A DNA stretch of 64,000 nt from Naegleria gruberi (lineage: Eukaryota), in NCBI GenBank assembly GCA_000004985.1, contig GG738867.1; one strand, given 5' to 3'. Made by a program: the position numbers and the translations under genes. This document shows positions 1-61,379 of the stretch, in pieces. Position 1 is the stretch's first letter. Every line of letters starts with the position of its first letter. The notes beneath the pieces are model-generated. The model did no database searches. It was not told the DNA's origin and worked only from the letters and a program-made list of their open reading frames with translations.

Positions 1-1143
1 GTGGCAGAAATTACCTTTCAAGTTTCGTCTGTTTCTGCAAATGATGTGAAAATTCCAGAGAAACCATTTAGTTTTGAACAGATTCTTCCATTCTCTCCTA
101 ATTATTTGTATGCTGATGAGGATGATGATCTAATATTGAAAGGAGAAGGCTCCAATTCACAAATTAAATACGAAACTAAACCTATCCAATCAAGTTTCGA
201 ATCCTCATTCAATAATAATCGATCCATCATTCAACTAGGATCAAATTCATTTGTAATGAGTGGTGTAACATCCTATTCGAATCATCACAATTTAATAATC
301 AAGCCAGATGATGTATGGCTTGCAATTTCTACTCAATTTTCGAATTACGTAAATGGAAAGTCAGAAGAATTACGAGAGAAATTTGTAGATTTCAAAGGTA
401 AAAAACAATTAACTGTTTATGGAGGTGGAACATTGTATTCTGCTGATTATGTCACTCTTTCGAATAAGATGACTGAACAAATTGAGATGAATATCAAAGA
501 TCCAAGTATCCGAAATTGGATTATTCCAAATTTTTCAACAACCACCAAAACTGATAGAATGGTTGGTTCGATAGTATTGATGGCATCGATGAAAAATTAT
601 TTTGATTATCAGATTAGTTTATCTTGTAATTTACCTAATGTTACCTTATTAGGAAATGTTGAAGATTGGATTGAAATTAGAGAAAGAGCCGAAAGATTAT
701 TAGAATTTGATACCAAGGAAGGATATATGAGAAAATGGGTAAAAATACTTTTACCAATTTTGGATAAATTTGTTGACTCTGCAAAAGGAAATCCTGATAT
801 TGAATGGTGGAATAGAATAGCTCATTGGGAAGGTGGAGGATCTGGACCATCGTATATAAGTGGTTGGATTACTGCTTTCTGTGTATTTTCAGAAAAGGGT
901 CATTGGAAAGGAGACGAAACTTCAGTTAAACTGTTCAACAAGTCAAAGGAAATCACAAGTGAATGGCTAATTATTGACAGCGATGAAATACCAAGAGGTT
1001 ATGTCAATGTACCAATTCAAATAGACGATAATGGGATATTGTATAATACTGAAATGTTTGCTGGACATATGGTTTCTGATATTTTGAAAGATGGAAAGAC
1101 GATTCAACCAAGAGTTGATTGGGCTCTCTTCCTTATTCTATAA
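1..1143 (+). CDS. Hypothetical conserved protein, 5'-partial (ORF is open at window start)
   Basis: 380-codon ORF open from nt 1; the GTG at position 1 is only the ORF-finder start and the real start may lie upstream of the window. Globular composition with a Trp/Gly-rich C-terminal half ([22 protein letters not shown]). No catalytic motif recognised. Confidence 0.45.
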
Positions 1144-7900: not shown

Positions 7901-9955
7901 CGTAACAAATCCAAGAGTGCTGCTAGATTAACTATTGAATTGACCCCAGAACAAATCAATTCTAATACCATCTTGAATAATAATATTGACCATCTTGTTA
8001 TTGATAAGATCTTTGTCAAGTCTGGTGAATTGAGTGATGATGCTATTGAAAGCTTTGTTAAGGGCTTGTGTGGCGTTTCTAATGATGAAATTAATCCAAA
8101 AGCTAATAGAATGACATGTACTGGTAACATTAATATTAATCCAGTACCAAGAACTTTCAGTTTGCAAAAGCTTATTGAAGTTGCTCACTATAATATTAAC
8201 AGAATCAAAATTGTTTGGTCCAAGTTGTGGGTTCACATGGGTAAACATTTCATCACTGTTGGTACACATGATGATTTGACTATTGCAATGAATGCTATTG
8301 ACTCTTTGAGACAACTTTCAATGAAATTCTTGGAACAAGACGAATTGGCTAACTATCACTTCCAACGTGACTTCCTCAAGCCATTCTTCCAAATTATTCA
8401 ACAAAGCAACAAGACTGAAATTAGATTACTCACTGTTGAATGTGTTGGTCAAATGATTTTGGGTAGATATAACAATATCAAGTCTGGTTGGAAGACAATT
8501 CTCCAAATCTTTGCTCAAGCAGCTTTGTGTGGATCACCAGTCACTGACGAGGGTTTTAGATATGTCACTGCAATGATGAAGGATGGTGGTGATGTTGATT
8601 ATTTCCATCAAATTCAACAAAACGAATCCTTTGTTGATTGTATCTTGTGTTTGACTGCTTTTGCTCGTAACTTGGCTAATACCAATATTTCCAAAAGTTC
8701 TATTGCACTTTTAAAGCTCTGTGCTCTTCATATTGTTAATAATAGAGTTGATGCTATCAAGAATGTTGACATTTACACTGATGAAGAAGTTCACTTCAAG
8801 TTGTGGTTCCCTATCTTGACTGGTCTCTCGCGATTGGTTAGTGACGATAGAAGAGAAGAAGTTAGAGCTAATGCTTTGAAGACTCTCTTTGAAGAAGTTC
8901 TCATTAACAGAAAGATTGGTGACAGATTCTCTCCAAAGCTTTGGAATTTCGTTTTCACTGGAGTTCTTTTCCCAATATTTGACGAAATCAAGCAAGCCAA
9001 TATCACTGATGAAAGCTGGATCAATACTACTTGTAGAAAATCCTTGAGCTTGATGGTCACATTATTTGCTCAATACTTTACATCCATTCCACAATTATTC
9101 GACAATATTCTCACCTTGATTAGTTCTCATTGTTTCTTTAGAGTTGAAGAGGATCAAGTCAATCAAAATACTGACTCTCCTTTGGTTGTTGAAAAGAAGA
9201 TTAAGAATGAAAAGCTTGCTGAAATTGGTAACGAGTCATTCAAGATTTTTGTTCAATTATGTGGTAAATTATTCAATGACCAACAATGGGATGCTGTTTG
9301 CAGAAGTTTGGAAAGTATTCTCACCATCAACCTTAAACTTAAGTCACCAATCGATAGCAGAATCCGTTTGAAGATTATTGAAACAACTAACGATATTCTC
9401 ACTACTCAATTCGATAACATGAAACTTGTTCACATTGAAAGTATGCTTGATTCATTGTTGAATTGTCATAACACCTCATTGGAATTCAACTCCAAGCAAA
9501 AGGGTAATGCTGAAAATGATTACGAGATTGAAATTGAAATGTTCTCCTGTACTGTTTATGTTAATATCTGTTCCAAGTTGTGCTCATCACCAAAAACAAC
9601 CGAAGAACTCTCTAAACGTCAAGAAGTTGGAGAAAATAGAATTATTGAGATTACCGAAAGAACTTTCATCAGATATTTACAACATATTGGTATTTTACAA
9701 TATTCTGGTAGTAATGCTGATTTAGATATTCAACAAGATACTGTCTTGTGTGGTAATAGATTAATGTCATCATTGGTTCCAACAGTTGTTTCTCTCCTCG
9801 AAGTTTACCTTTCATTCCCTGAAGAACAATTCCTCAAATACTTACCTAAATTCTACCCTCTTTTCACTAAATTATTGCTGACGCAACACAGAGAAATCAG
9901 ATTAGTTCTCCTTGACTTGTTCACTAGATTTGGTAAACAAGTTCTTTTGAAATAA
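4905..9955 (+). CDS. Brefeldin-A-inhibited (BIG/Sec7-family) ARF guanine-nucleotide exchange factor; 3 exons: 4905..5067, 5166..5994, 6049..9955
   Basis: Canonical Sec7 domain in the long ORF (FNRNPKKGIKYLVE...FRLPGEGQQIDRVVQKFAEKY...NTELHNP). DCB/HUS-like N-terminal regions align with BIG1 (DAFFIFRALCRLAMK.. / PDSLELKSRLLSLELIHNVLENSGPVFRTSE vs human DAFLVFRSLCKLSMK.. / PDPKSHELRSKILSLQLL..AGPIFRTNE). GTATGT donors at 5068 and 5995 with TAG acceptors give in-frame joins. About 1630 aa in total. Confidence 0.85.
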
Positions 9956-14596: not shown

Positions 14597-14677
14597 CGCG
14601 GTCTACAGGATTCGAACCTGTGCGGGTCGCCCCAATTGATTTCTAGTCAATCACCTTAACCACTCGGTCAAGACCGC
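14597..14677 (-). tRNA. tRNA-Ser (anticodon AGA)
   Basis: Reverse complement GCGGTCTTGACCGAGTGGTTAAGGTGATTGACTAGAAATCAATTGGGGCGACCCGCACAGGTTCGAATCCTGTAGACCGCG folds as a type-II tRNA. Acceptor GCGGTCT/AGACCGC, D-arm GCCGAGTGGTTAAGGC, anticodon stem ATTGA/TCAAT with loop CTAGAAA (AGA), long variable arm, T-loop GGTTCGAATCC. Near-identical to eukaryotic tRNA-Ser-AGA. Confidence 0.85.
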
Positions 14678-18012: not shown

Positions 18013-18269
18013 TTTTAAAAGGTGGTGTGTGAAATTCATTATTTGGACCATTGAATTATTGAACCAATTTGTAAAGTGGAGAAATAATGGAAAGTCAATT
18101 GCATTTATGTCAGTAAATAGAGGCAATGGTGCAACATTGCAAATCTGACTAATGATCCTTCCGGATGAAAATTTAAAGTATCTTCCAAATAATAATTCAA
18201 CAATTGTAATCAAGTAAAAAACACTGGACGAATTTGTGAATTTATATTAAGCCAATAGATAAAATGAAG

Positions 18270-18340
18270 TGCATTAGCCGGGAGTCGAACCCGGGTCACC
18301 AGCTTGGAAGGCTGGTATGATACCGTTACACTACTAATGC
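18270..18340 (-). tRNA. tRNA-Gly (anticodon TCC)
   Basis: Reverse complement GCATTAGTAGTGTAACGGTATCATACCAGCCTTCCAAGCTGGTGACCCGGGTTCGACTCCCGGCTAATGCA. Acceptor GCATTAG/CTAATGC, anticodon stem CCAGC/GCTGG with loop CTTCCAA (TCC), T-arm CCCGGGTTCGACTCCCGG. Closely matches eukaryotic tRNA-Gly-TCC. Confidence 0.85.
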
Positions 18341-35069: not shown

Positions 35070-38000
35070 CTAAACCCAGTTGGTCTGTCTTCCTAAAGTA
35101 TAAATGTCTTGAAGAGTGGATGTAAAGGTATTTTTTTGTTTGAGTTCTAGGTACTTCTTGTAGAGTCTTAATGCAGTTCTGGCATCCTCTATACTGTCGT
35201 GCGTATCTTGTTGAATATCTTGATTCAATAAATATTTACAAAGGAATCTCAAAGAAATCTTTCTTTGATTTGGTAATCTATATAATTCTACAGTGTCAAT
35301 TATTTGTTCCTTAGGTACGAAAATGTTAATAATCTTAAAATCGTTTGGCAAGCCATGACCGATAAATTTAACCTTCTTCACATCAAGTAAATATCTCAAC
35401 TTGAGGTAGGTATTCTTAATATCAGTAACATGGTGGGTATTAGACTTGTTATTAATATCCAAGTCTCCAGCCTTCAATCCAGAGAATCGTGTCATGTAAT
35501 CTCCAATACGTTTCTCAGCAGTTGAAATGTAATCGTCAATGAGTATCTCCTCATTGAATGTAATAATACTGACTCTACCCAAACCAAAACGTTGTCCATC
35601 ATCAATTTGATCTTCCTTTCTTGTTCTAACAAATTCAGCATCAATAGATACAATATCACCACTAAAGTTTACAATAGTTTTGAATTCGTCATTGTTGAAT
35701 AGGGAGGTATTTTCAGAGATTGGATTTACAGGGTTTACAGTTGGTAGGACGTTCTGAATATCTTGTCTCACGTAGAAAAGTAATGCTGGTGTCTTCCAAG
35801 TTTGACTGTAGATAGTAACATCCTTTTCTTTCTGTGGACTGATGGAAAAATCGTTGAAGAGAACCCAATCATTTGCAATCTTGATGAGAGCTACACAGTG
35901 ACCATCAAAATTCTTTGAGAGAGAAATATTTTCATTTTCTTCCTCACATTCATCTTCTTCATTTTCATTCTCATTTTCAATATTTTCGTAATCTTCCTTG
36001 TTGGCACTTTCAATAATTTTGGTTGTTTGAGTTTTTGGAGCAGTTGACTTTTCTTGGAATGGATGTTTAACTTGGATAATAACAGCAGCCAAATTATAGG
36101 TGATGGACATTGGAGGTTTTCTCTTCTGCTTGGTATAGACCTCGGCAGGTTGAATGTTGTGAATTGACTCTTGTAATTGCTTTTGCTTTTCGTCATTATA
36201 GATAAATGGCTCCCATTGATTCTTATCAGTACCGTGAATAATTGTAAAGTGGAGAGGTATGGTGGTATTTGTCAATTCATTTACAGTATGTTGTGTTCTT
36301 ATCCATCTAATGTCTTCTTCTCTTGCTGGTACAGTGAAGTTGAAAATATTAGGCAATGTCAACAAGCTTCCAGAGCTATTGTTGAGATAATCTTTCAACA
36401 TGACTTCAAAGTTGTCGTATGGATATTGTGGATTGACGCTCTTGAGCTTGTTATCAAAGTTAGTATCAACAGTTTTTTGAGTTTGAACTTCAGAACCAAA
36501 GAGAATGTCTACCATTGTTCTTTGTCTTCTCTTGTTTTGCTTCTTCAAGAGTTGAATGTTACTATTGTTGGTTGCTATAACTTGTTTCTTATTGTTTGGT
36601 GTGCTTCTCAAAAAATTGTAATTTGGTGAAGCAAAGATATATGGATAGGTCATGGAATAACTAAAGGTGGATGCTGATAAAAATTCCTTGTGAAGTTGTT
36701 TGATAATGTATGAGTGGAACTTTTGGATTGTTTCTATACAGGAAATTTTGCTACTCTTTTCATTCAAAAAGGTAAGTTCGAGATTTTGAATAGTTCTATA
36801 CAAGTTGGTAGCTTCTACTGCCTTCTTTTCAGTCTTTTCTGCTTGTTCAATCATGGTGAACAGGAAGCCAAGTTCTGAGGCAATACAGTTAGTCTTCTCA
36901 GATAGATGGTTCATGAGGCACACTCTCAATTGGGGAACAATGTGGTAGAGCACTTGGACGTAGGCATTAAAGATGGATGCTATTTCTAGGCCATTTTCTA
37001 ATCCAACAAATTTAGTGTCGTTATATTTTGAATAGTCAAATTCTTGGAAACGAAGTCTATTGTTGTGTTTAGCAACGTTCAAAGAGAACTCCTTTGGAAT
37101 GACACGCAAAACTCTTGAAAGTTTCTTCTTTGATTTGACATTGTCTTGTGCAAAATCTTTAAATGTTCTTCTTTCTAAATAGCCATCAATGACACGTTTT
37201 AGACCTGGGTTAATACTGGTTCCATAACTAATTTTAGAGTTGGGAGGGTTCTTATATTGAAGATTTTCTAAAATTTGGGGATGTATCTCAAGTGGATGTT
37301 GTCCAACCATGTAGGAATAATTTGGCCAATCAGACAACAGGGATGATCCATCATTTGTAACTTCTTCATCGTCAACGAGTTTGTGTAAATTCAATGGCTT
37401 GAAATCGTCATCGAAAGAAGATTGGTTTTGTGTTGAATAAAAGTGAAGAGTATTGGATGTATCTGCAAATGTCAATACATTTCCTGTTGTGCTAATATCA
37501 AATGATTGAATACCATTAGAATTATCTTGGTCAAATATTTGATAGAGGTTACCATCAGAATTTTGGTATCTATGATCAAATGAAGCTTGTAAATCTTTGA
37601 ATTGGAAATAACCTGTTTGAGATACCATCATTAAGAGTGAGTTGACTCTTGGATGGAATCCCAAAAATGTTGGATCAAGTTGGAAGTGAACTTGACCAAG
37701 CATTCTCAAAGTTCTAAGATCGTATGCTTTTACCATATTGTCAACACTTAGCTCACCATATCTATTGTTAAAACCACAAGTGACCAAGACATTATCTTTG
37801 ATGGCAATATCATTAATGGTACCTGTGTGGACTTCAAAAGAGTGTTCACTCTTGAGTGTTCTTGGATCTCTCAAGGACAATTCTCCCAAAGTACCACCAC
37901 AGCATACATATCTTCCTCCAGTTTTCATTACACAAATACCTTGATTGGTTTCTACTTGGAGACCCATCTTTTGAGCATTTAAATCAAAACTAAAGAGCTT

Positions 38001-38633
38001 GGTGAAATTACCTCCCATGATGAGAGAGTATTGTGATCTACTGCCAGATGATGAATTTCCTGGTGTGTGATCTGAATTGAATGCACATGACAATAATTGT
38101 TCACCAAATAGTTTAGAATCTTCATAGCTGTATCTGTATAGACCACCTCTTGTATGAACAGCAAAACCATTTGAACACAATGAATAAATTCTCTCCTTTT
38201 GAACGATCAATTGTTTGACATCGTAATTGGGTTCAAATGCTCTGAAGGAACAATACTTTTCCATGTTTGGATAATAGTAACCTGTGATTCTACCGTTTGA
38301 TGATCCTGTCCAAATGCACTCATCATAATTGTCTGTTACAACAACACGATTATCGTCTGGAGTGTCTACAGATGGCAGTTGACACCAATCTCCACTATTT
38401 GATTGTCTAGTATTTGAATAAAAATCATCGTTTGAATATCCATAACCATAGTTTACCATTTGACGTTGATAATTCTGTTGTTGTTGATAATAATATGGAG
38501 ATGATTGTTGCTTTCCTAGAGATGGTGATCGTTGTGGAGATCCACCACCTTGGTAATTATTCTTTCTTCCATTGTTTCCATATGAAGAACCTCTATAATT
38601 TGATTGTTGTGGTGAATATTGATTATAATACAT
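35070..38633 (-). CDS. PAN2: PAN2 (poly(A)-specific ribonuclease subunit of the PAN2-PAN3 deadenylase)
   Basis: 1187-aa uninterrupted ORF with the PAN2 architecture: N-terminal WD40-like region; central inactive UCH-like region; C-terminal DEDD exonuclease (IVSIDAEFV...; ...HDSIEDARTALRLYKKYLELK). Gln/Tyr-rich low-complexity N-terminal extension. Confidence 0.85.
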   Translation of the reverse strand: MYYNQYSPQQSNYRGSSYGNNGRKNNYQGGGSPQRSPSLGKQQSSPYYYQQQQNYQRQMVNYGYGYSNDDFYSNTRQSNSGDWCQLPSVDTPDDNRVVVTDNYDECIWTGSSNGRITGYYYPNMEKYCSFRAFEPNYDVKQLIVQKERIYSLCSNGFAVHTRGGLYRYSYEDSKLFGEQLLSCAFNSDHTPGNSSSGSRSQYSLIMGGNFTKLFSFDLNAQKMGLQVETNQGICVMKTGGRYVCCGGTLGELSLRDPRTLKSEHSFEVHTGTINDIAIKDNVLVTCGFNNRYGELSVDNMVKAYDLRTLRMLGQVHFQLDPTFLGFHPRVNSLLMMVSQTGYFQFKDLQASFDHRYQNSDGNLYQIFDQDNSNGIQSFDISTTGNVLTFADTSNTLHFYSTQNQSSFDDDFKPLNLHKLVDDEEVTNDGSSLLSDWPNYSYMVGQHPLEIHPQILENLQYKNPPNSKISYGTSINPGLKRVIDGYLERRTFKDFAQDNVKSKKKLSRVLRVIPKEFSLNVAKHNNRLRFQEFDYSKYNDTKFVGLENGLEIASIFNAYVQVLYHIVPQLRVCLMNHLSEKTNCIASELGFLFTMIEQAEKTEKKAVEATNLYRTIQNLELTFLNEKSSKISCIETIQKFHSYIIKQLHKEFLSASTFSYSMTYPYIFASPNYNFLRSTPNNKKQVIATNNSNIQLLKKQNKRRQRTMVDILFGSEVQTQKTVDTNFDNKLKSVNPQYPYDNFEVMLKDYLNNSSGSLLTLPNIFNFTVPAREEDIRWIRTQHTVNELTNTTIPLHFTIIHGTDKNQWEPFIYNDEKQKQLQESIHNIQPAEVYTKQKRKPPMSITYNLAAVIIQVKHPFQEKSTAPKTQTTKIIESANKEDYENIENENENEEDECEEENENISLSKNFDGHCVALIKIANDWVLFNDFSISPQKEKDVTIYSQTWKTPALLFYVRQDIQNVLPTVNPVNPISENTSLFNNDEFKTIVNFSGDIVSIDAEFVRTRKEDQIDDGQRFGLGRVSIITFNEEILIDDYISTAEKRIGDYMTRFSGLKAGDLDINNKSNTHHVTDIKNTYLKLRYLLDVKKVKFIGHGLPNDFKIINIFVPKEQIIDTVELYRLPNQRKISLRFLCKYLLNQDIQQDTHDSIEDARTALRLYKKYLELKQKNTFTSTLQDIYTLGRQTNWV

Positions 38634-46601: not shown

Positions 46602-49600
46602 TTATAAAATTTCCTTTCTTTGAGCATTGGGTGGTTCTCTAATTCTGGCAATTTTGATGAATTGCTCGACAGTCATGGTGCTTCCATAGAGTGCAGAGGC
46701 TTCTCGTTGTTGCTTTTGGATCATCATTTGGATTTGGAAAACTGGTTGGATGGCAAAGTCAACTCGACACTTTTCCAATCTGTTCATGGCTGTGGCAAGT
46801 TCTTCAAATTTGGCCCATCGAATCATGTTATTGTGATGTTTCACATAGGTTTCAGTTGAGTAAAAGTAGCTCAATTCTTCCTGTTGTAAAAAATCCATAA
46901 AATGATTCTGAATATACATGAGCTCTCTCAAGTGAGCTTCAACAATTGGAAGACAAGGAGTTCTGCATCCATCAAATAGGTCATTATAATTCTGATATCG
47001 AGAATCTTCAACAACTACTACATCGATATGATAATTGGATGGATCAAATCCGAAAAAGATGTCATATTTGGATTTGAAATGAATGAGGGATGGAGTTGGC
47101 ATGTGAGAGAAGGAAGAATCTTTTGATTTGGCAGTATGGTGATCCTCATAAAAGACTACGAGTGGATTAGTTTCCACTTCTTCAGCTTCATTGTCATCCT
47201 CTGAGGCAATTTGTTGCTGTTTGATTGAGTTGTTGACACTTGTTGGAATTACTCTGACAGTGCTTATTGATTCCTTTCTTCTGACAATATTTGGAGATGG
47301 AAGGGAACTTTCTACATTGACAGAAGTGGAACTATTGATAGAGAATGAGTCGAATGAGCCTGATTTTCTCATTTCTTGAACAATGGTATGGCTGTGTTTT
47401 GGGTGACCGAGATTTCTCACAATACTCTTGAAACTAAAGTTGGCATTTCCTTTGAATTTCTTTTTGGATTCATCGACAGTATGGTAGAGATTTTCCTTAA
47501 TGGCTGGATGTGAAAAGATGGTAGCAAGTGCATGGGCAGCACCATAGTTTTGCATATTGTACAATTCAATAATGATTTGCTTAATCTTGATGATCAATTC
47601 AACACGATCCTTGATGTGTGGTTTATCCAAGACATCACACATAAGCCAATTAGCTCTATCGTGGATCAACTCGAGATATTGACACAATTTAGGACAATTC
47701 ATCTTGAAATATTGAGATCTAAAATTGGAAATGGCCATATTGAAATCCAAGTAGCCATACGTCTTTTTACAATTCTTTACAGAGAGAATGGAATAATTCA
47801 AAAATTCAACACTCGAAATTTCACTATAAAAGTAATAATCCATAATAGTGAATTGTCTAGATAATTCTACAGGTGACACATCTGACCATTTGAGAGAGGA
47901 TGAAAAGACATTTGGAGGAATGTTTGGTCTTGGACATTTTGACGAGTCCATGTAAATGGTTTTGTAAAAGTGATAATATTCGTCAGTGTTGGTATTATCA
48001 TCATCAAGATTTTCATCGGTATCAATTGAAGTTTCCAAGGCATTCCTCTTTCCTCTTCTATTGTTGCCATTAGTGAAGATTACATCAGAATCTGATTCAG
48101 ATAAATGGGACGAGAAGAAATTAGACAACTTATCAGAGAATGACTCTGTGTCGGTCTTTTCAATTTCCAGCGAAGTGAATTGGGTATATTCCTTAATGCT
48201 GACCTTCTTTCTCAGATTCTTCTTACCTAAAATTGTTGCCATTTTCTTTTTCAATGTTGTATTGATAGTTTCACATAATTCGAGTGCATTTCCAACTTTT
48301 GATAGAGTCACAACCGAGTCTGGAATCTTGCTTGACTCAACCTTTTTCAATAAGTGTAGGGATTTTATCTGTTCGATAATCTTTGAGAGAAATTCGAACA
48401 TGTTTTGATTCCATTGATAGTAATATTCCGATAGCCAATAGCTCAACACATCGAGACAACAAATAATAATTTCAATACACTCTACAGTTTCCAAAAGTTT
48501 TGACATTGTGTTGGTAATTCTATCAACGTGTTCACCGACTGATTCTTCAAGAATATTATCATTAGTGACATCAGTAGAGGAAAAGACTCCCTTACTATCT
48601 AATCCGAAATTTTTCATGATCAAGATGAGTGGAAGACTCAACCTTTCGAATATTTTCAATAGGAGACCATCTGGAGACAGAATGTGAACATATCCCCTGA
48701 AGAATGCCTTTCTAAAAGTGTCCTTTGTTTCGATTCTTGTCTCAGGACGTACACAATTCTCTCCAAATACTTCGAAATAATCATTAGCAACAGTATCGTA
48801 TTCTCTGAAACGAATCTTACTCATAGTATCGAATAGTCTGTGCTCAGTGACTGTAACCATTTCAATGAGTTTGTTCAAAGTCAATCCAAATAAGACGTTG
48901 TGATTCTTATCGTCGTCTTTGAATGTATAAAAATTGGAGAATGAGTCAAATAATTCATGATGTTCTCCAGTGCTTTGATTCTTCCTCTCTATGAATAGTT
49001 TTCGTTGTTTGATATCATTTGAGGTCAGAGTTTCGAATGCAATCTTGGGAATGTTTGAGAACTCCTCCCAATAGGAAGGTTTCAGAGAGAGCTTGTTAGA
49101 TTGAGAACGAAGGAGGAATTTTTGGAAGAAATTTTGAGTTACTGTTTTCGAAGGAATGAAAGTGTTTCTTCTGATGGTACTTTCTCTCACTCTCGATTTG
49201 GCAGGCGAGAGAGGAGAATTTTTGCTCGATAAAGTGCTAGCTCTTCCATGAATGGAACGAAGCTTTTCCAATGTTTCGGCAGCTGTTGGTCTTCCAATAG
49301 GATTAGGATCCAATAATTTACAAATCAATTCGGCCAATTCAGTTCCATTAGTTACACATTCCATAACTTGTTGTCTGAGTTGGGCATGGAAATTCACATT
49401 CTGATACACCTCAATGTAAAATTGTCTATTCAAGACTTGGAACAAGAGTTCATAAAATACACAACCAAGAGACCACATATCTGTCGAATATCCATATGGT
49501 TCCTGGGACATCATTTCTGGTGAGCAATATTTAACAGTACCCAGAAGAGTTTGTTCAGAGCTAAAGCTTTGTGGAACAAGAAGCTGGTCAGTGTGAATAC

Positions 49601-50426
49601 TGCCATTATTCCTATTGAAAAAATTACCTCTTTCCTTTTCCAATTCTACTGCTTCTTCACTGGTGGAGAATTTCATCTTTTTCATAGTTTCAAAATCTCC
49701 AATCTTGATCGACTTTTCATCATTGGTAACAAAAATGTTACTCGGCTTTAAATCCAAATGTACAAATCCCTCGGAATGCAAATACTTGACACCCTCTGCA
49801 ATTTGAATCATGTAACTCAATAATTGATCTCTCGAAATGACTTCAAATATTGAATTGACATGACAATTATTCGTACTTTCGTATTGTTTAGTTTTCTTCT
49901 TCAAATAGGTATCCAAATCACCATGTTTAAAGTATTCCATTTGAAAGCAAATCCAATAACTTTGTTTCTTATCAACAAGCTGACTCAAATTCTCAACTTG
50001 CATCTTGATAGATGATGATGAATCGGAAGAAATTGAACCTGCTTCAGCAATTTCATTCTCATCCTCATCGTCATCTTCACTTCCAACAAGTAATTTGGAT
50101 TTTTCACTAGCTTCATTCTTTGTATTGGCAACAAACTGATTACCATTCACATTCCCAGTACCAGTACCAACACTATTTCCTCCTCCACCTCCTCCCAAAT
50201 TAGAATTACTATTCGAATTATTTGTATTCATAATATTTGCAAACTTTTCAAAAAAGATATCTTCAATTTCTACAAGATTTGGCGACTTTAAATGTCTCAA
50301 TTTCCATCCCTCAGATATAAATCTGTTCAACTCATCCTCCGAGTAGCATTGTGTCTTTTTGAGAACTTTTGTAATGTGCTCTCGGGTGACAATGACGAGA
50401 ACCATTTGTTGATTATTCTTCATCAT
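46602..50426 (-). CDS. Protein kinase - RasGEF (CDC25-homology) fusion protein; the 5' end possibly extends upstream
   Basis: 1274-aa ORF. Kinase C-lobe motifs YLHSEGFVHLDLKPSNIF, IGDFETMK, GTVKYCSPE and DMWSLGCVFYELL. Gly/Asn-rich insert. RasGEF N-terminal-like region and a CDC25 catalytic domain (..NMQNYGAAHALATIFSHPAIKENLYHTVDE.. / ..PCLPIVEAHLRELMYIQNHFMDF). The reading frame stays open for about 70 codons upstream of the first Met without another ATG. Confidence 0.65.
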   Translation of the reverse strand: MMKNNQQMVLVIVTREHITKVLKKTQCYSEDELNRFISEGWKLRHLKSPNLVEIEDIFFEKFANIMNTNNSNSNSNLGGGGGGNSVGTGTGNVNGNQFVANTKNEASEKSKLLVGSEDDDEDENEIAEAGSISSDSSSSIKMQVENLSQLVDKKQSYWICFQMEYFKHGDLDTYLKKKTKQYESTNNCHVNSIFEVISRDQLLSYMIQIAEGVKYLHSEGFVHLDLKPSNIFVTNDEKSIKIGDFETMKKMKFSTSEEAVELEKERGNFFNRNNGSIHTDQLLVPQSFSSEQTLLGTVKYCSPEMMSQEPYGYSTDMWSLGCVFYELLFQVLNRQFYIEVYQNVNFHAQLRQQVMECVTNGTELAELICKLLDPNPIGRPTAAETLEKLRSIHGRASTLSSKNSPLSPAKSRVRESTIRRNTFIPSKTVTQNFFQKFLLRSQSNKLSLKPSYWEEFSNIPKIAFETLTSNDIKQRKLFIERKNQSTGEHHELFDSFSNFYTFKDDDKNHNVLFGLTLNKLIEMVTVTEHRLFDTMSKIRFREYDTVANDYFEVFGENCVRPETRIETKDTFRKAFFRGYVHILSPDGLLLKIFERLSLPLILIMKNFGLDSKGVFSSTDVTNDNILEESVGEHVDRITNTMSKLLETVECIEIIICCLDVLSYWLSEYYYQWNQNMFEFLSKIIEQIKSLHLLKKVESSKIPDSVVTLSKVGNALELCETINTTLKKKMATILGKKNLRKKVSIKEYTQFTSLEIEKTDTESFSDKLSNFFSSHLSESDSDVIFTNGNNRRGKRNALETSIDTDENLDDDNTNTDEYYHFYKTIYMDSSKCPRPNIPPNVFSSSLKWSDVSPVELSRQFTIMDYYFYSEISSVEFLNYSILSVKNCKKTYGYLDFNMAISNFRSQYFKMNCPKLCQYLELIHDRANWLMCDVLDKPHIKDRVELIIKIKQIIIELYNMQNYGAAHALATIFSHPAIKENLYHTVDESKKKFKGNANFSFKSIVRNLGHPKHSHTIVQEMRKSGSFDSFSINSSTSVNVESSLPSPNIVRRKESISTVRVIPTSVNNSIKQQQIASEDDNEAEEVETNPLVVFYEDHHTAKSKDSSFSHMPTPSLIHFKSKYDIFFGFDPSNYHIDVVVVEDSRYQNYNDLFDGCRTPCLPIVEAHLRELMYIQNHFMDFLQQEELSYFYSTETYVKHHNNMIRWAKFEELATAMNRLEKCRVDFAIQPVFQIQMMIQKQQREASALYGSTMTVEQFIKIARIREPPNAQRKEIL

Positions 50427-52394: not shown

Positions 52395-55300
52395 ATGTCA
52401 TCATCACACTCATTCACTCTAATCTTTCTAACTATTGCTGTTATATTGCTAACTTTAAATGGGCACTATTCGATATTTGCCTTTGATCTTACTTTTCCAA
52501 CATTTCCTGATGCCAAGTTTCGATCGGATACTTCCAATGCCACTGAAGTGTTTATTAAAGACTCAATTGACCAAATTGCTAAACAACTCGAGCCACCATC
52601 TTTAGCTCTTCCATATTATATTGATGGACCAATAGCACTATTCGCAGAAGTGGTTGGAGTTCTCTCAAATAGTGACACGTACAGTAAACCTTACGTAAAA
52701 CCACCAGATGTTATTTCGAATAGTACACACGAAATGTTGAACATAATGATGACCAAAGTATTGAACCGAGTAGAAACTGCCCTGTTAGAAACCAAATATG
52801 ATAAGCTTGTTATTGCTCTCGTTATTGAACTCGATAAGGATCTTGAAGTTGCTGATTGTAACATTTCGCCAATCATTCCAATAGAAATATCAAAAAAACT
52901 TGCTGACATTACTGTCTATTTGACAATTAATGGTCATTCCTTGAATATGAAATGTGGTGGAGATTATTTATTCTCTAGTGGTCCAGATTCCAATTGGAAC
53001 ATTGTTATTAACAGAGCAGTACTTTCGAATATATATTTTACTGGAAATTATGTTTTCAAAAAGGTTGAATTTTTGGCTCAATGTGAAATATCAGCTTCTA
53101 GTTTTTTAGTATTCATCAAATCCAAGACTCTTCACACACTATATATTCCCTACATTAGTGCTATTAAGGAATTGATATTTATTGATAGTGTTATGGATAA
53201 ATTAAGAGTGGATTTCATTCAAGAGTTTCATCTATTTTTGGCAAGTAATAGTTTGATTGGTTTAGGAATGTTCGATTGTGAAATTAAGAATGTTTGGCTG
53301 TATAATTCAAAGGTTTATCTAGAAGACAGGTTTATTATTGAAAGTTCTGATCAATTCATATTATTTAACTCAACTATTCAATCAAAGAACTCTCCAATAC
53401 AGATGAGAATAGAATATTCGAAACTTATTTTCATAGATGGCTTTAAAAATTCTCATACTCCAATCATGCTCTCACTTTCACATTCCATTTCTGTTGTAAT
53501 GAAAAACATATTACTCAATTCTGCCACTTTACAACAAGAATCACTTCTTAATTTTCGAGGAATCAAATCATTATCCATCTATTCCTCCATATTTAAAGAA
53601 AACAATGCAAATAGAATTATAGACATTAGTGATTCAAGTGAGGTTGACATTAAAGAGATTTTATTTGAGGAGAATTCTGCTACTGATAGTCCAATTTGCA
53701 TTTCTCCTGGTGGAGCTAAGAGCTCACATACCCGTATTGTGGACAGTGTTTTTAATAGGAATAAGGCGGGAAATAAGGCAGTGATTGCATTGTCTCATCC
53801 AATTATATTGGCCCGATCTGTTTTTAATGAAAATGAGGGAGTTAGTGGAGGTTTGTATATTTTGATTTAAATTGGTGGTTGACCATGTTTAGGAGCTATT
53901 TATGTTGAAGCTGGATTTACTATTTCTGGGTCCACTTTCAAGAAGAACAAGGCCAAGAATGGAGGAGCTCTGTATATTCACTCAGAAATTGGTGCTTCAG
54001 GTACCATGCAAAATGTTGATTTTGTGGAAAATCAAGTAACAGATCTAGATGATGTTAAAGTGTGTGGTCAAGATAGTTGTGATGGAAGTGGAGGTGCTAT
54101 TTATTATAACCAAAACGACCTTTTCTCAATAATGTCATGCAATTTTGTCAAGAATTTGGCTGTCAGAGGAGGTGCCATCTTTGCAAATTTTGAAAATGAT
54201 ACCATTTTTATTACTTATTCGAAATTCAAAGAAAATTATGCAAGTTATGGAGGAGGTGCAATCTATTCTAATTCTGCCTCATATCTTCCATTAATTTATG
54301 AAGAATTGGGAAGTGGAAATAAGGCTAAAGTATTTGGAGATTATGTTGCTTCTTCCATTGCTAGTGTGAATTGGAGAGTTCAAATTGAGGATCAAAAAGA
54401 TAGATTATATGAAGGAAATCAAACTATTTCAGTATATCCAGGTCAATTATTTACCATTATTCCCTATTTTACTGACCTTTACAATAATTCTTTTGTAATG
54501 AATAAGGAAGTTTCAAAAATCAAAGTTTCAGGATCAAATTTCACAATTAGTCAATCATCAGAAAAGGAATTTACTAATCTATTCATTGCATCAACCGGTC
54601 CACTTCCAAATTCTGAACATTTACACATGACAACACTTACCATTTCATTTTACAAAACCGAAACCAATCTAAAAGTCCAACTTCTCCCCTGTCCAAAGAA
54701 TTTCTATTTGAAAGATAATCAATTTAGTAAGAATCTTGTCTGTGTCTATGAAGAATCCAGAGAATATCTGATTGCTGTAGCTGTTTCAGTAACCATTGTG
54801 GTCATTACCCTTCTCCTATGCTCAATAGGTGTCATTTCCATGCTCTGCTACAAGATATCCCACAAGGTAAAGTATTGGATGCGTAGAGATAAGGCAGAAA
54901 AGGAAATTGAAAAGCGATTACTCGAATCTGATCTATGTCCAGAAGAGGAATTGCTCAGTGTTCGAAATTTGAATTTTGTGATTAGTATTGATCAGATTAC
55001 ATTGGAAAGAAAGATTGGAGAAGGTGGTTCTGGAATTGTTTATTTGGGAAAATGGCATCACCATCCAGTTGCTGTCAAATGTCTTAAACTTCAAGATGCT
55101 TATCAAAATTCAGATGAAATTGAAAAGGAAGCAGCTCTATTATGCAAACTTAGACATCCCAATATTGTATTATTCTTTGGTGTTTCATTAACTCCACAGA
55201 AACAATATCTCATTGTGGAATATTTGGAGAAGGGAAGTTTGGAGAAACATATTTCATTAATGAAACGAAACCATCAATTCGAATTTGTTGACAAGTTGAA

Positions 55301-56086
55301 GCTTTTGATTGATATCACATGTGGAATGGCATATCTTCATTCCCTTAAAGTTATTCATAGGTATGTGAAATATTTAAACTATTTATTCCTAATATTCGAA
55401 ACAGAGATTTGAAACCTGGAAATATTCTATTAGATTCTGTTGGAGTAGCCAAAGTTTGTGATTTTGGCATTTCTAGAATTGCTGGAAACACTGCAGCAAA
55501 CTCCACAACCATCTGTGCTGGAACTTTAACCTACATGGCTCCTGAACTATTGCAATCAGATGCCGAAAAGAATCGAATTACAACCTCAGTCGATGTTTAC
55601 AGTTTCTCAATTATCATGTATGAAATATTCTTTGAGGAAGCTCCCTATGCAAAATCTTTGAAAATCAAACAATTTAAACAGGAAAGAAATGGAAAAATTC
55701 ATAATTCTCATTCAGAAGATGGTTTTTATAATAATCATCATCTTGTAACTCCATTTTCAGTTATTTCCAAAGTGATTAAGGGAGTGAGACCTGAAATTCC
55801 ATTCGAAAATCCACAAGATATTGCTGAATGGCTTCAATTATACATGTTTGAATATGGATTACTTTCCGATATTTGTAAATCAAAGGCAATTTCTATTGTA
55901 AATGATTATGTGGAATTGATGAAAGCTTGTTGGAGTGCAGAGCCAGATCAGAGACCAAACTTTGAAACTGTTCTCAATTGTCTTTCATTGTTGAGACAGC
56001 AATTTATGGACTTGACAGATTATCATAAACAGATATCTGGTTCTCTATCCTCTACATCAACAACTACTACAACTGCCTATGACTAA
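52395..56086 (+). CDS. Receptor-like TKL-family protein kinase with large GGAIY-repeat (Pmp-like / parallel beta-helix) ectodomain; exons 52395..53850, 53893..55360, 55405..56086
   Basis: Signal peptide (LIFLTIAVILLTLNG). Approx 800-aa ectodomain containing recurrent GGA[IL]Y/GGGAIY units (GGAIYYNQND, GGAIFANFEN, GGGAIYSNSA, GGALYIHSE). Single TM (LIAVAVSVTIVVITLLLCSIGVISMLCY). The cytoplasmic kinase has IGEGGSGIVYLG, AVK, HRDLKPGNILL and DFG. GTTTGT donor at 53851 with TAG acceptor at 53892, and GTATGT donor at 55361 with CAG acceptor at 55404. Confidence 0.7.
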
Positions 56087-56186: not shown

Positions 56187-57520
56187 TTATATTGAATTAC
56201 CGTGTAGAGATTCTTCTGCCATTGCATTAAAATTAGAAACAGTTTCGTCCTGTGAAACTGAAATACTACTACAAGGTGTACCATTAATATCATGTGGTGG
56301 AGTTGCAACTGGAGTGCCTGAATCAGAAGGCGACAAGATCAACTCTGAAATCTTTGCCTTCTCTCCAATTGGCACAAATACAGAGCTACGATTTCTTGGA
56401 CTTGTTGGAATTGTTTTCGTTTCGGAACAATTAGATTTCGTATCATCCATATGCAACTCTTTGAAAACTGTCTCAGTCTGAATGAATAACGGATAGAATA
56501 GAGCAAGAGTCAAGCTGGCAAAAAATAAAATTCCAGCACAGTTTACAAAATGCCAAATAAACTTGAATTCGTCCTTGTCAGCAACGAGTGCAGCTCCAAT
56601 GATTACTGCTAAAAGTTGAAGCAAGATACAGGCAATTAAGCCAATCAGGAGAGAGAATGTCACAATAAATGGGTTTTCCATCTTTTTTTGATGACTAGTG
56701 ACGTTCTTAATCTTTTGGATGGACTTTCGAATAGTTTTAATCACTAATATTCCAGAAGTTAAAATAGCAATGGTATCTTTTGCATATAAAACTAGAATAA
56801 TTCCAAATAGTACAAAGTTAAGGGTGGTAGTTTCTGTTTTGTTAAAGATATTAAACTTGGTCAGAGGAACAAATAAACTTGCCAAGGTTAATACAATGAA
56901 AGTGGCAATTACGAAAAGAACTATTGTGATCTGAGTAAAGATTCTAACTCTCTTGAATGCCTTCTTTGAAATGGCTCTCATGGTTACAGCAGTTCTCCAA
57001 CTATTTTTTCTATTAGAATCAAAACTAAATTATTCGAAACTTACAAAACCATCTGAACGAAAAACAAAATCACAAACAACATGATAAAGTTCAGAAACAT
57101 GAAGAATGATGAAAATCCAGCAGTTACCCAAATAGCCATATAGTGTGAGTAAGAAACCCTTTCACCTCTCTCAACAATTATTCTAGCTCTAATGAATAGG
57201 ATATCATTTACTATACGAATCAGTAAATTGATACATTGGATAGCTACCATGGACCCTGCCAATAAGAACATGATGATATGATTCCTTTTCATGATTCCTT
57301 CACCAACTTTCTTCTCAGACGAAACGTGTTGATGTTTAATTCTATTTCGAATAAGACTCAATAACAATCCAAAGCAAATAAAGTAAATAATAAACAAGCA
57401 CAAATAGAAACCAGAATTAGCCATCGAAGCAGCTGGACCCCATATTGGTGGAAAGGCATTCACAGACGAAACATTGACGAAACCATCACCAGGGAACGAA
57501 ACAGTAACATTTGAAGACAT
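56187..57520 (-). CDS. 7-transmembrane receptor-like protein (GPCR-like), tandem paralogue 1; exons 57520..57045 and 57000..56187
   Basis: Exon 1 has about 3-4 hydrophobic helices and ends FFVQMV with a GTAAGT donor (phase 2). A 44-nt intron with TAG acceptor. Exon 2 begins ..WRTAVTMRAISKKAFKRVRIF, has 4 more helices and then a Ser/Thr-rich cytoplasmic tail. Seven to eight TM segments in total. A VERGERVSY motif sits at the end of a helix. Start taken as the ATG at 57520 (MSSNVTV...); an alternative ATG is at 57559. Confidence 0.6.
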
Positions 57521-57975
57521 TTTTTTATAGTAGAAGCTCGTTATTCTCTCACTCAACACCTGTATTAACGTTTGATGGAATGGTTATCATATAGTACAGA
57601 GATAAAACATGTCAAATTGACAGTTGGCTCTTTCCAAATATGGAATAATCTCACTTTTCATGTTGGTATGATATTTAGTAATAGACACCAAAGAAATACA
57701 ACTACTATATAGGAATGATGGAAGTGAGATATTGAAAAAAGCAAAGAACCACTTGTACTGTAAAATACTGAATTGTAAACTTGGTGAGACTTGATGTCAT
57801 CAAATGCGTACTACACAAGATTAATGCTTACAGTAAGTTTCTAGTTCATGAAAAGATTCTGATGAAATTGTTGGTCCACAGTGATGGAAGGTTTCTTCAA
57901 AGTTTAGAATAGTTTGGTTTCTGACCACAAAATATTCGAAATTCTCGAAAGTTTCAACTTGATTGCAATAGTTTC

Positions 57976-59296
57976 TCATTCAATCATTGCAATGACAGAT
58001 TCACTACTTGGTAAGGGCATGAAATTCGAAAGTGTTTCACCAGGAGTTTCATTCGAAAGTGCACTACTGCTCGATGTTCCAGAATTTCCCTGCAATATTT
58101 GCAATGTTGCATCACCAGGTGATAAAACCATTGCACTCTTCTTATTATCAATTGAAAGAAGCATTGAATTTCTATTATTCGATTCGTTTCTTCTACTTTC
58201 AGATAGATTAGAAATGTTTGACTTTGTATCATCAATATGCAATTCCTTAATCACCGTCTCTGTCTGAATAAACAATGGATAGAATAATCCAAGTGTCAAA
58301 ATGGCAAACATTAAAATTCCAGCACAATTAATGAAATGCCAAACAAATTTCAATTCTTCCCTATCAGAAACCAAAACTGCTCCGACAATTACTGCAAGGA
58401 ATTGAAGTAAAATGCAAGAAATTAAAGCTATCAGTAAGGAAAATGTGACAAGGAATGGATTTTCCATTTTCTTGTGTTGAGTGGAAATGTTCTTAATTTT
58501 CAGAATGGACTTTCGAATGGTTTTAATGACCAGTATTCCAGAAATGAGAATGGCAATGGTATCTTTGGAGTATAATAGAACGATTAATCCTAGTAAAATA
58601 AAGTTGACTGTGTTGCTTGTTGATTTTGAAAGGTAATCGAATTTCAATAGGGGAACTGAGATACTAATGAGGATTAGTAAGACGAAAGCAGCAAATACAA
58701 AGAGAGAAATGGTGATTTGAGTAAAGATTCTAACTCTCTTGAATGTCTTCTTTGAAATGGCTCTCATTGTTGCGGCAGTTCTCCAACTAGTTTTTCTGTT
58801 AGAAACAAAATATTAAATTATTCGAAACTTACAAAACCATCTGAACGAAAAATAGAATCACAAACAACATGATATAGTTAAGAAACATGAAGAATGATGA
58901 AATACTAGTCAATGACCACATGGCTGCATAGTGAGCGAAGGTTATCCTTTCACCTCTCTCAACAATTAATCTTGCCTCCATGAATAGGATATCAGAAACT
59001 AATCTGATCAGTAAATTAATACATTGAACGGCAACCATGGACCCTGCCAATATGAACATGATCACATGATTACGTTTCATCACTTGTTTAGTTCTGTTTT
59101 GATCCACTCTCTTTCGAATAGTTCTAAACAACAAGCCGAAACATATGAAATAAATGGCAAAGAGAACCAGATAGAAACCAGAATTAGCCATCGAAGCAGC
59201 AGTTCCCCACACAGGAGGAAATACATTCACAGACGAAACATTGACGAAACCATCCTCTGAAAATTTAATGGTTTCATTGCAACAACCTTTTGACAT
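57976..59296 (-). CDS. 7-transmembrane receptor-like protein (GPCR-like), tandem paralogue 2; exons 59296..58833 and 58786..57976
   Basis: Same two-exon structure as the neighbouring gene, with the same phase-2 GTAAGT donor after FFVQMV and a 46-nt intron. High similarity along the whole length (e.g. MRAISKKTFKRVRIFTQITISLFVF... vs MRAISKKAFKRVRIFTQITIVLFVI...). The C-terminal tails have diverged. Confidence 0.6.
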
Positions 59297-59708: not shown

Positions 59709-61379
59709 ATGTTATCAAAAGCAGATGCCGATCAAAGAATTTTAGATTTTCCGAGCAGTATTTTTAGTCAGGGTACAATTTGTAGGTTTTTACATGATCG
59801 GAATGTGTTGATCATTGATTATGATGCCAATCCTACTTGGATTTTCTATTTTTCCAATTAATTATTATTATTAATTACTATTAATTATTATTATTTAAAT
59901 ATTTGATGATCAAAAATCAATTCAGGGGTTTGTGGAAGAAATGTTGATGGACAATTACTTACACCATGTAAAGATACAACTTTCCACTCAGTATCAGATA
60001 TTCTTCCTGTCGAAGTTTCTGAAATATTTCCATATGGTGATAGTTTAAAGTGGATTGGAGCTGGAGATCATTTTACAATTCTCGTGACCAAATCAAATGT
60101 TGTCTATGCTGCTGGACAAAATACGAGTGGTCAGCTTGGATTAGATCACAACAAGGTTTTGACTGAAAAGGTTGTTCGAGTTCACTTTTTTGATCACAAG
60201 AATATTGCAAGTATTAGTTGTGGAGCTTATTATACGTTTTTTATGGAGGAAATTGGAGATTCACAAATTGTTTATGTGTGTGGAAAGAATAATAGTGGAG
60301 TGAGTATTTATTGTTATTCAAAATGTTGCTGAACGGAGTTTTCATGAAATTGTTGTGAATATTGTGAATTTATTAAATATTATTAACGGAATAATATAGC
60401 AATTGGGAATTACATACAATGAAGATGAGGATAATTTGATCTTTCCACCTCATAACTTGAATTTATCATTTATTGAAAATGATAGAATTGAAAAGATTGT
60501 TTGTGGATATGAAACTACCTTGATATTATGCAGTAAGTAGAGGTATCAATTTCGCATTGCGAAATACTATAACCATTTAGAGAGTGGAAAGCTTTATGGT
60601 GCAGGAGCAAATACCACCAATCAATTGGCTAGACCATCATCAGATCCATTACTACACAAATCAGGAAGTTTTGAATTATGTAATTTTGAATCCTTAATTT
60701 CCGATCACGAAAAGATCATCGACGTTTCCTTGGGAACAAGTTATGTTCTAATTTTAACAGATATTGGCAATGTGTACAGCAATGTGAATACATCGTATCC
60801 ATTTTTCAAGAGAATTGGCTTGAATAGCTCACCATTTTCCAAAATTCATTTTGGAGCATCAAATGGTATGTTTCAAAAATTCAAGAATTTTACAATTTCT
60901 TGAAAATAGCTTATTTGAAAATTTCAGATAATCACCCAAACGAAGATATTGCAGGAAAGATTACACAATTACTCATTGATAATCAATCGGGTTCATTTGA
61001 CAATAATTTGAATATACTAGACCCAGTAATTAACAATTCAGATACAAATATTGCAATTATGAGTGGATTGACAGGATTCTTTTTCATTTCAGCTGACTAT
61101 TCCCAAGTATTCTCCCTTGGAAGTTCTGGATCTGGTGAATTGGGTTATATAGTACATTCTGTACCTGTTCCAGAAAGGAATTTTATTGTAGAAACAATTA
61201 TTTCAAGAACTCGATCCTCATCCAATAGAGAACTAGAACCAAAAATTGTTTGTGGTTACAGTCACACATTATTGTACTTTTCAGATGTTAGATCCAGAAA
61301 TTATCTTCTCTTTGTTGCTAATATGGAAAAGCACAGTCACACTACCACTTATCTGTGTGATATTTCTTTTGTATTTTAA
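59709..61379 (+). CDS. RCC1-like repeat (beta-propeller) protein; about 5 exons (59709..59781, 59926..60299, 60400..60532, 60581..60865, 60928..61379)
   Basis: Repeated RCC1-type units (VVYAAGQNTSGQLGLDHNK; KLYGAGANTTNQLARP; VFSLGSSGSGELGYIV; IVCGYSHTLLYF). Introns are bounded by GTAGGT, GTGAGT, GTAAGT and GTATGT donors with CAG/TAG acceptors, and the phases close to an uninterrupted approx 438-aa product. Exon models are inferred by eye. Confidence 0.5.

What the first reader, a model, noticed from the sequence alone, without database searches (positions are those of the whole stretch)
56187..59296. Tandem duplicated pair of two-exon 7TM receptor-like genes with conserved intron position
Two same-strand genes 455 bp apart encode highly similar multi-pass proteins. 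Both have exon 1 ending ...LFVILFFVQMV plus a GTAAGT donor, and both have exon 2 beginning ...WRTAxTMRAISKK(A/T)FKRVRIFTQITI. Their introns are 44 and 46 nt, in the same phase. The TM cores are conserved while the N-terminal ends and the Ser/Thr-rich C-terminal tails have diverged. This is the classic pattern of recently duplicated chemoreceptor/GPCR genes.
Basis: seen in the sequence. Interest (0 to 1): 0.55.

Follow-up and report, generated by a model that had tools for sequence, protein, structure and literature searches.

The report
Tandem orphan 7TM receptor-like genes (Naegleria)
Two neighbouring, intact, two-exon genes in a Naegleria-type amoeba genome encode old paralogues from an uncharacterised amoeba-specific family of seven-helix membrane proteins; their predicted fold matches G-protein-coupled receptors and rhodopsins, but they match no known receptor family by sequence.

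Summary
Two minus-strand genes, A (56187-57520) and B (57976-59296), lie 455 bp apart. Each has one short phase-2 intron at the same codon. They encode 429- and 424-aa proteins that are 67% identical.

They are not a recent duplicate or an assembly artefact. Core dS is about 1.0 and dN/dS about 0.18.

The window comes from an unannotated Naegleria species. Its PAN2 ORF is 74% identical to N. fowleri PAN2.

The proteins belong to a family found only in Heterolobosea (Naegleria gruberi, N. fowleri, N. lovaniensis, Willaertia) and in metagenome ORFs. Every named member is annotated as hypothetical. There is no Pfam or PDB sequence match. The intron position is conserved in the two N. lovaniensis relatives whose junctions I read, one of them only about 34% identical.

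The topology is N-out, with a conserved glycosylation sequon and a disordered Ser/Thr-rich cytoplasmic tail. Cytoplasmic helix halves are conserved. A and B differ mostly in their outward halves.

Best reading: orphan receptor-like 7TM proteins, possibly unconventional GPCRs. Function is inferred, not shown.

The parts
56187..57520 (-). Gene A, 429-aa seven-TM protein (ATG 57520, TAA stop 56187-56189)
   Evidence: Splice model and open frame. 7 hydrophobic segments. 98.9% identical to metagenome ORF P0001.
57045..57520 (-). Gene A exon 1: N-terminal ectodomain with NVT/NVS sequons, TM1-TM3
57001..57044 (-). Gene A intron, 44 nt, phase 2 (GTAAGT...CTAAT...ATAG). An alternative in-frame acceptor at 57010 would give 35 nt.
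   Evidence: Family consensus FW across the junction. Same position in N. lovaniensis genes.
56187..57000 (-). Gene A exon 2: TM4-TM7 plus a ~95-aa Ser/Thr-rich tail
57521..57975 (.). 455-bp spacer between the stop of gene B and the ATG of gene A. It does not align with the region upstream of gene B.
   Evidence: 30-50% identity, i.e. unalignable.
57976..59296 (-). Gene B, 424-aa paralogue (ATG 59296, stop 57976-57978)
58833..59296 (-). Gene B exon 1
58787..58832 (-). Gene B intron, 46 nt, phase 2 (GTAAGT...CTAAC...CTAG). An alternative acceptor at 58796 would give 37 nt.
57976..58786 (-). Gene B exon 2
56900..57110 (-). Block straddling the gene A intron with about 90% nucleotide identity to gene B (B counterpart about 58690-58900). 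Synonymous divergence is lowered here.
   Evidence: Sliding identity. pS 0.31 versus 0.60 elsewhere, Fisher p = 0.002. First 19 intron nt are identical.

Best explanation
Shown:
- The locus holds two intact, tandemly arranged paralogues in a Naegleria-like (heterolobosean) genome.
- They arose by a lineage-specific tandem duplication that is old (dS about 1).
- Both copies are under purifying selection.
- They belong to an uncharacterised 7TM family that is restricted to Heterolobosea among named sequences.
- An ancestral phase-2 intron splits the Phe of a conserved FVQxxFW motif at the cytoplasmic end of TM3.
- The predicted fold is the GPCR/rhodopsin-type seven-helix bundle.
- The short N-terminus carries a conserved N-glycosylation sequon. 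The protein has a variable-length third cytoplasmic loop and a disordered Ser/Thr-rich tail; the charge bias and the N-terminal sequon place the N-terminus outside and the tail inside.

Inferred mechanism:
- They act as membrane receptors.
- The outward-facing half of the bundle, which varies across the family and holds most A/B differences, binds a ligand.
- The conserved cytoplasmic ends of TM2, TM3, TM5-7 and the RAISKK second loop engage a common transducer. The likely transducer is Naegleria's heterotrimeric G proteins and/or arrestin-like proteins.
- The Ser/Thr tail provides phospho-regulation.
- After duplication the two copies kept the coupling surface and diverged in ligand side and tail, so they would sense different cues or be regulated differently.
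For: Gene structure and paralogy. dS about 1.0, dN 0.18, omega about 0.18 in the core.

A and B are each other's closest relatives (67-73%, versus 54% or less to any other sequence). The syntenic N. lovaniensis locus has a single copy next to the same Chlam_PMP kinase.

Family: 48 representative clusters at E<1e-3. Every cluster whose members I looked up and found a name for is Naegleria or Willaertia.

Intron position is conserved in the N. lovaniensis orthologue (83 nt) and in a paralogue about 34% identical (104 nt).

Topology: positive-inside loops, N-terminal sequons, Ser/Thr-rich tail.

Cytoplasmic helix halves are more conserved than outward halves across 16 of the 17 aligned full-length sequences, gene B being left out of the score (1.66 versus 1.04, Mann-Whitney p = 0.003). 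A/B substitutions are three-fold enriched in outward halves (45/130 versus 19/130, p = 3e-4).

Literature context: N. fowleri has slow-exchanging G-alpha subunits that should need a receptor GEF, but only one recognisable cAR-like GPCR has been identified (PMC9283941). UniProt auto-labels one N. fowleri member as 'GPCR family 1 profile domain-containing'.
Against: - No sequence-level link to any GPCR class. Pfam returned nothing relevant at E<=1 to 10. PDB profile searches were empty.
- Class-A hallmark motifs (E/DRY, NPxxY) are absent.
- The structure models are of homologues (about 34% identical to A and B; P0009, P0016), not of the window proteins themselves.
- There are no expression, localisation or ligand data.
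- The conserved-inside/variable-outside pattern is suggestive only.
Confidence: 0.55

Rival explanations
1. The proteins share the 7TM bundle but are not signalling receptors. They could be a lineage-specific channel, transporter, lipid-handling or trafficking protein, like GOST/TMEM87-type Golgi 7TM proteins.
Against: There is no GOLD or other luminal domain and no Lung_7-TM_R hit. The long variable ICL3 and the disordered Ser/Thr tail are typical of regulated receptors. The conserved-inside/variable-outside pattern fits receptors better than pores. There is no internal 3+1+3 repeat as in SWEET/PQ-loop carriers (hhalign probability 1%).
Confidence: 0.3
2. They are retinal-binding microbial-type rhodopsins (light sensors or pumps).
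Against: There is no conserved mid-TM7 lysine for a Schiff base. The TM7 consensus is WxFxNxxGxLxFAxxxLxLFxPxF, and its only common Lys lies at the extracellular start. No Bac_rhodopsin Pfam hit. The ~95-aa Ser/Thr tail and long ICL3 are atypical for rhodopsins.
Confidence: 0.03
3. The pair is an artefact, or one copy is a decaying pseudogene.
For: None beyond the tandem arrangement. No annotated protein from this genome is in the databases.
Against: Copies are about 70% identical at nucleotide level, not identical. Both frames are open with canonical GTAAGT...AG introns. Omega is about 0.18. An independent metagenome contig reproduces gene A and its neighbours at 98.5% identity.
Confidence: 0.02

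Closest known systems
Uncharacterised Naegleria/Willaertia 'hypothetical proteins', e.g. N. lovaniensis C9374_004659 (KAG2383322.1, syntenic orthologue), C9374_007817/8, N. gruberi NAEGRDRAFT_61815, N. fowleri FDP41_003295, Willaertia magna ABK040_011546
   Same: Same family. Profile E-values run from 1e-55 to 1e-4 on exon 2. They share the motifs DGxxN(V/I)(T/S), KRNxKI, FVQxxFWxTA..RAISK, SGxLVxxTI, NPFxxTFGL and LFYPxF. Intron position and phase are the same in the two N. lovaniensis genes checked. Synteny with the Chlam_PMP kinase is partly kept. A second tandem pair exists in N. lovaniensis.
   Different: A and B are at most 50-54% identical to any of these. The N. lovaniensis syntenic locus is single-copy. 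Introns here are 44/46 nt, versus 83 and 104 nt there. None of these proteins has a described function, a Pfam family or a mention in the searched literature.
G-protein-coupled receptor transmembrane domains (class D Ste2, class A such as V2R/P2Y, class C GABA-B/GPR156)
   Different: 4-15% identity in the structural alignments. No Pfam or PDB sequence match. No E/DRY or NPxxY motif. No class is preferred: the top hit changed from Ste2 to V2R between the two models. G-protein coupling is untested.
Microbial (type I) rhodopsins
   Different: No Schiff-base lysine in TM7. Long cytoplasmic loop and tail. No Bac_rhodopsin profile match.
Naegleria/plant 7TM-RGS proteins (Nf 7TM RGS1-4, AtRGS1) and the single cAR-like GPCR candidate of N. 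fowleri (PMC9283941)
   Same: 7TM proteins proposed as the surface input to G-protein signalling in the same genus.
   Different: No RGS domain or any other Pfam domain in the tail. No similarity to the Dicty_CAR profile or to cAR1.

Membership tests
Heterolobosean orphan 7TM family (unnamed; Naegleria/Willaertia hypothetical proteins) | Significant profile similarity and shared motifs across TM2-TM7 | tested here: met
   hmmsearch with the A/B exon-2 profile gave 48 clusters at E<1e-3 and 25 at E<1e-10. Exon 1 also aligns to full-length members.
Heterolobosean orphan 7TM family (unnamed; Naegleria/Willaertia hypothetical proteins) | Phase-2 intron splitting the Phe codon of FVQxxF|W at the cytoplasmic end of TM3 | tested here: met
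   Present in A and B, the N. lovaniensis orthologue and paralogue P0009. Metagenome ORF fragments start at the same AG|TTGG acceptor.
Class A rhodopsin-like GPCR (Pfam 7tm_1) | Match to the 7tm_1 profile; E/DRY at the end of TM3; NPxxY in TM7 | tested here: not met
   No hit at E<=1 to 10 for 16 members. TM3 ends FVQMVFW and TM7 ends LFYPLF. One N. fowleri member carries an automatic UniProt PROSITE-profile label.
GPCR superfamily in the structural sense | Seven-helix bundle with GPCR connectivity, N-terminus out, C-terminus in | tested here: met
GPCR superfamily in the functional sense | Ligand-dependent nucleotide exchange on a heterotrimeric G-alpha, or arrestin recruitment | not testable with these tools
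   Needs biochemistry. Only context is available: Naegleria has slow-exchange G-alpha subunits and arrestin-like genes.
Class D fungal pheromone receptor (STE2) | Sequence membership in the STE2 family | tested here: not met
cAMP receptor / Crl family (Dicty_CAR, class E) | Sequence membership | tested here: not met
   No Pfam hit.
Microbial rhodopsin | Conserved Schiff-base lysine in mid-TM7; Bac_rhodopsin profile | tested here: not met
   No conserved mid-TM7 Lys in the alignments. No Pfam hit.
7TM-RGS proteins | C-terminal RGS domain | tested here: not met
   The tail is low-complexity and Ser/Thr-rich, with no Pfam domain, and is disordered in the models.
GOST / Lung_7-TM_R (TMEM87, GPR107/108) | Large luminal GOLD-like N-terminal domain plus the Lung_7-TM_R profile | tested here: not met
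SWEET / PQ-loop 3+1+3 carriers | Internal repeat of TM1-3 and TM5-7 | tested here: not met

The most novel reading that the evidence does not exclude
The family may be an undescribed, Heterolobosea-specific class of true G-protein-coupled receptors. Such receptors would be the missing exchange factors for the slow-exchanging G-alpha subunits of Naegleria. The A/B pair would then be an example of ligand-side diversification after tandem duplication. If so, the family would give candidate chemosensory receptors, and possibly drug targets, in the genus that includes N. fowleri.
Probability: 0.3. Interest if true: 0.65.

Novelty: new variant of a known kind. Interest (0 to 1): 0.4.

Why it matters
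Naegleria has a large G-protein toolkit. According to PMC9283941, only one recognisable GPCR candidate has been found in it.

A roughly 45-cluster family with a confident GPCR-type fold, glycosylated N-terminus, variable ICL3 and phosphorylatable tail is an obvious candidate for the missing receptors. It can be tested directly against the already purified N. fowleri G-alpha subunits.

The family is also a clean case of a lineage-restricted 7TM family that profile methods (Pfam, PDB) miss and structure prediction reveals.

The tandem pair itself is ordinary gene-family evolution. The practical by-products are:
- corrected gene models, since several database entries are exon-2-only fragments;
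- a defined family signature.

Tried and rejected
- The word-indexed protein search with spliced protein A found only a metagenome ORF of the same locus. Repeating it with a 12-sequence family profile recovered only 3 known members, because hydrophobic words swamped the candidate list.
I therefore used exon-wise window translations and homologues instead.
- The afdb50 Foldseek library was unavailable.
- A parabasalid origin, suggested by the CTAAYAG intron end, was dropped once homologues and the PAN2 ORF pointed to Naegleria.
- An internal TM1-3/TM5-7 duplication was rejected.
- Exact-sequence look-ups of two neighbouring ORFs found no annotated genome of origin.
- Literature searches for the metagenome project and for family locus tags found nothing.
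- The bacterial promoter/terminator scan was at chance level and is irrelevant for a eukaryote.
- hhalign against Ste2 and cAR1 was negative.

Full report
**1. Observation**

The region contains two genes on the minus strand.

- Gene A runs from the ATG at 57520 to the TAA stop at 56187-56189.
- Gene B runs from the ATG at 59296 to the stop at 57976-57978.
- The spacer between them (57521-57975) is 455 bp.

In both genes exon 1 ends ...LFVILFFVQMV followed by GTAAGT. Exon 2 reads WRTA(V/A)TMRAISKK(A/T)FKRVRIFTQITI.

Introns of 44 nt (A, 57001-57044) and 46 nt (B, 58787-58832) are in phase 2, splitting a Phe codon TT|T. They give uninterrupted frames of 429 and 424 aa.

A second in-frame acceptor 9 nt upstream (CTAATAG / CTAACAG, giving 35/37-nt introns) cannot be excluded from DNA alone. 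The 44/46-nt model restores the family-wide motif VQxxFW(K/R)TA. The same TT|T split with an ...AG|TTGG acceptor is seen in two N. lovaniensis relatives. A neighbouring kinase intron (44 nt, GTATGT...CTAAT-12 nt-AG) has the same branch-to-acceptor spacing.

The proteins are 67% identical over 384 aa. The nucleotide sequences are about 55-90% identical across the coding region and unalignable in the flanks. This is a real paralogous pair, not chance similarity and not an assembly duplicate. An independent metagenome contig (L001) reproduces gene A and its downstream neighbours at 98.5% identity.

**2. Age and selection**

Nei-Gojobori estimates for the conserved core (330 codons) are pS 0.55 (dS about 1.0) and dN 0.18, so omega is about 0.18. 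For the tail, dN is 0.77. The duplication is therefore old and both copies are under purifying selection. 'Recent' is wrong.

A and B are nevertheless each other's closest relatives. The syntenic N. lovaniensis locus carries one copy beside the same Chlam_PMP-repeat receptor kinase. The duplication therefore happened in the window's lineage after that split.

A roughly 200-nt block straddling the intron is about 90% identical between A and B. Its pS is 0.31 versus 0.60 elsewhere (p = 0.002). The first 19 intron nucleotides are identical. The cause could be a gene-conversion tract or nucleotide-level constraint; I did not resolve this.

**3. Organism and surroundings**

- Window GC is 33.8%.
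- The PAN2 ORF (35070-38633) is 74% identical to N. fowleri PAN2 and 59% to Willaertia magna PAN2.
- Exact look-ups of two neighbouring ORFs found no annotated source.

The window is therefore from an unannotated Naegleria species distinct from N. fowleri and N. lovaniensis.

Neighbours:
- A convergent receptor-type kinase of about 1190 aa with a Chlam_PMP repeat lies at 52395-56086 on the plus strand.
- A multi-exon RCC1-repeat gene lies upstream of gene B, starting at about 59709-60084 on the plus strand.
- Further away are a kinase-RasGEF, a BIG/Sec7 gene, PAN2 and a Sec5-like gene.

Nothing suggests an operon-like functional link.

**4. What the proteins are**

Pfam gives no match at E<=1, and PDB sequences give none either.

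An exhaustive HMMER search with the exon-2 profile found 48 representative clusters (25 at E<1e-10). Two of the weakest, P0028 and P0042, look like repeat-driven false positives: P0028 is 2473 aa with 10 matched stretches and P0042 has 5, and P0042's sequence is a simple tandem repeat. Every hit with a name is from Naegleria gruberi, N. fowleri, N. lovaniensis or Willaertia magna, and is labelled hypothetical or predicted protein. The rest are metagenome ORFs.

Sixteen members give no Pfam family. A 12-sequence full-length profile finds nothing in PDB sequences. No searched paper mentions the locus tags.

Many database entries are exon-2-only fragments that start at the conserved acceptor. These include the N. 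lovaniensis orthologue KAG2383322.1, whose exon 1 lies upstream of an 83-nt intron.

**5. Structure and topology**

Hydropathy gives seven segments. The basic loops are 1-2, 3-4 and 5-6. The N-terminus is uncharged and carries NxS/T sequons, and N16 is nearly invariant in the family. The tail is about 95 aa and Ser/Thr-rich. Together these indicate an N-out, C-in topology.

The tools refuse spliced sequences, so I modelled two full-length homologues using family alignments that included the window's exons.

| Homologue | Mean pLDDT | pTM |
|---|---|---|
| N. lovaniensis P0009 | 77 | 0.71 |
| N. gruberi P0016 | 81 | 0.76 |

Both models have TM cores with pLDDT above 90, seven long helices and a disordered ICL3 and tail. 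The P0009 model also has a small N-terminal hairpin, and in the P0016 model TM5 and TM6 are markedly extended.

There is no conserved mid-TM7 lysine, so this is not a retinal protein. There is no RGS, GOLD or other domain. There is no internal 3+1+3 repeat.

**6. Functional inference**

Across 16 of the 17 aligned full-length sequences (gene B, a close paralogue of A, was left out of the conservation score), the cytoplasmic halves of TM2-TM7 are more conserved than the outward halves (mean pair score 1.66 versus 1.04, p = 0.003).

The strongest motifs sit at the cytoplasmic ends:
- KRNxKI at the start of TM2
- FVQxxFWxTA..RAISKK at the end of TM3 and in ICL2
- SGxLVxxTI in TM5
- NPFxxTFGL at the start of TM6
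- LFYPxF at the end of TM7

Between A and B, substitutions are three times more frequent in the outward halves (45/130 versus 19/130, p = 3e-4) and in the tail.

This is the pattern expected of a receptor family with a shared intracellular partner and diversifying ligand pockets. It does not prove that reading.

Literature context comes from PMC9283941. N. fowleri has both self-activating and slow-exchanging G-alpha subunits, arrestin-like genes and 28 7TM-RGS proteins, but only one recognisable (cAR-like) GPCR. [quoted passage not shown] The present family is a plausible part of that unnamed set. UniProt's automatic PROSITE label on one N. fowleri member points the same way.

**7. Verdict**

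- Right: 7TM, receptor-like, tandem duplicates, conserved intron.
- Wrong: the duplication is not recent.
- Not demonstrable: membership of any named GPCR family.

The pair is best described as two old paralogues of an orphan, Heterolobosea-restricted 7TM family with a GPCR/rhodopsin-type fold. The receptor function is inferred at about 55% confidence, and true G-protein coupling at about 30%. The tandem pair is ordinary. The family is moderately interesting as a candidate for Naegleria's missing GPCRs.

Noticed in passing
window 52395-56086 (+): Three consecutive ORFs (491, 468 and 225 aa) appear to be one transmembrane receptor-type kinase of about 1190 aa with a Chlamydia-PMP repeat ectodomain. 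A 44-nt intron (55361-55404, GTATGT...CTAAT...ACAG) splits HR|DLKPGN. The syntenic N. lovaniensis gene is 1197 aa.
   Followed up: partly
window 56900-57110 and 58690-58900 (-): Around the shared intron, the two paralogues are about 90% identical at nucleotide level. Synonymous divergence is half that of the rest of the genes (pS 0.31 versus 0.60, p = 0.002), and the first 19 intron nt are identical. This could be a gene-conversion tract or a splicing-related constraint.
   Followed up: partly
L002 9405-10951 (N. lovaniensis PYSW02000021.1): The annotated orthologue KAG2383322.1 (316 aa) is a truncated model. Its exon 1 lies at 9405-9932, upstream of an 83-nt GTAGGT...CTAG intron. Many metagenome 'proteins' of this family are likewise exon-2-only ORFs starting at the conserved acceptor (SWKTA...).
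   Followed up: yes
L003 5001-7753 (N. lovaniensis PYSW02000031.1): A second same-strand tandem pair of the same family (C9374_007817 and C9374_007818) exists in N. lovaniensis. Tandem duplication therefore recurs in this family.
   Followed up: partly
window 14597-14677 and 18269-18340 (-): tRNA-Ser(AGA) and tRNA-Gly(TCC) genes are interspersed among protein-coding genes.
   Followed up: no
window 46602-50426 (-): A 1274-aa ORF combines a protein kinase domain with a RasGEF domain.
   Followed up: no
window 1-1143 (+): An ORF running off the window's start has a very strong DUF4419 match (E = 2e-108).
   Followed up: no
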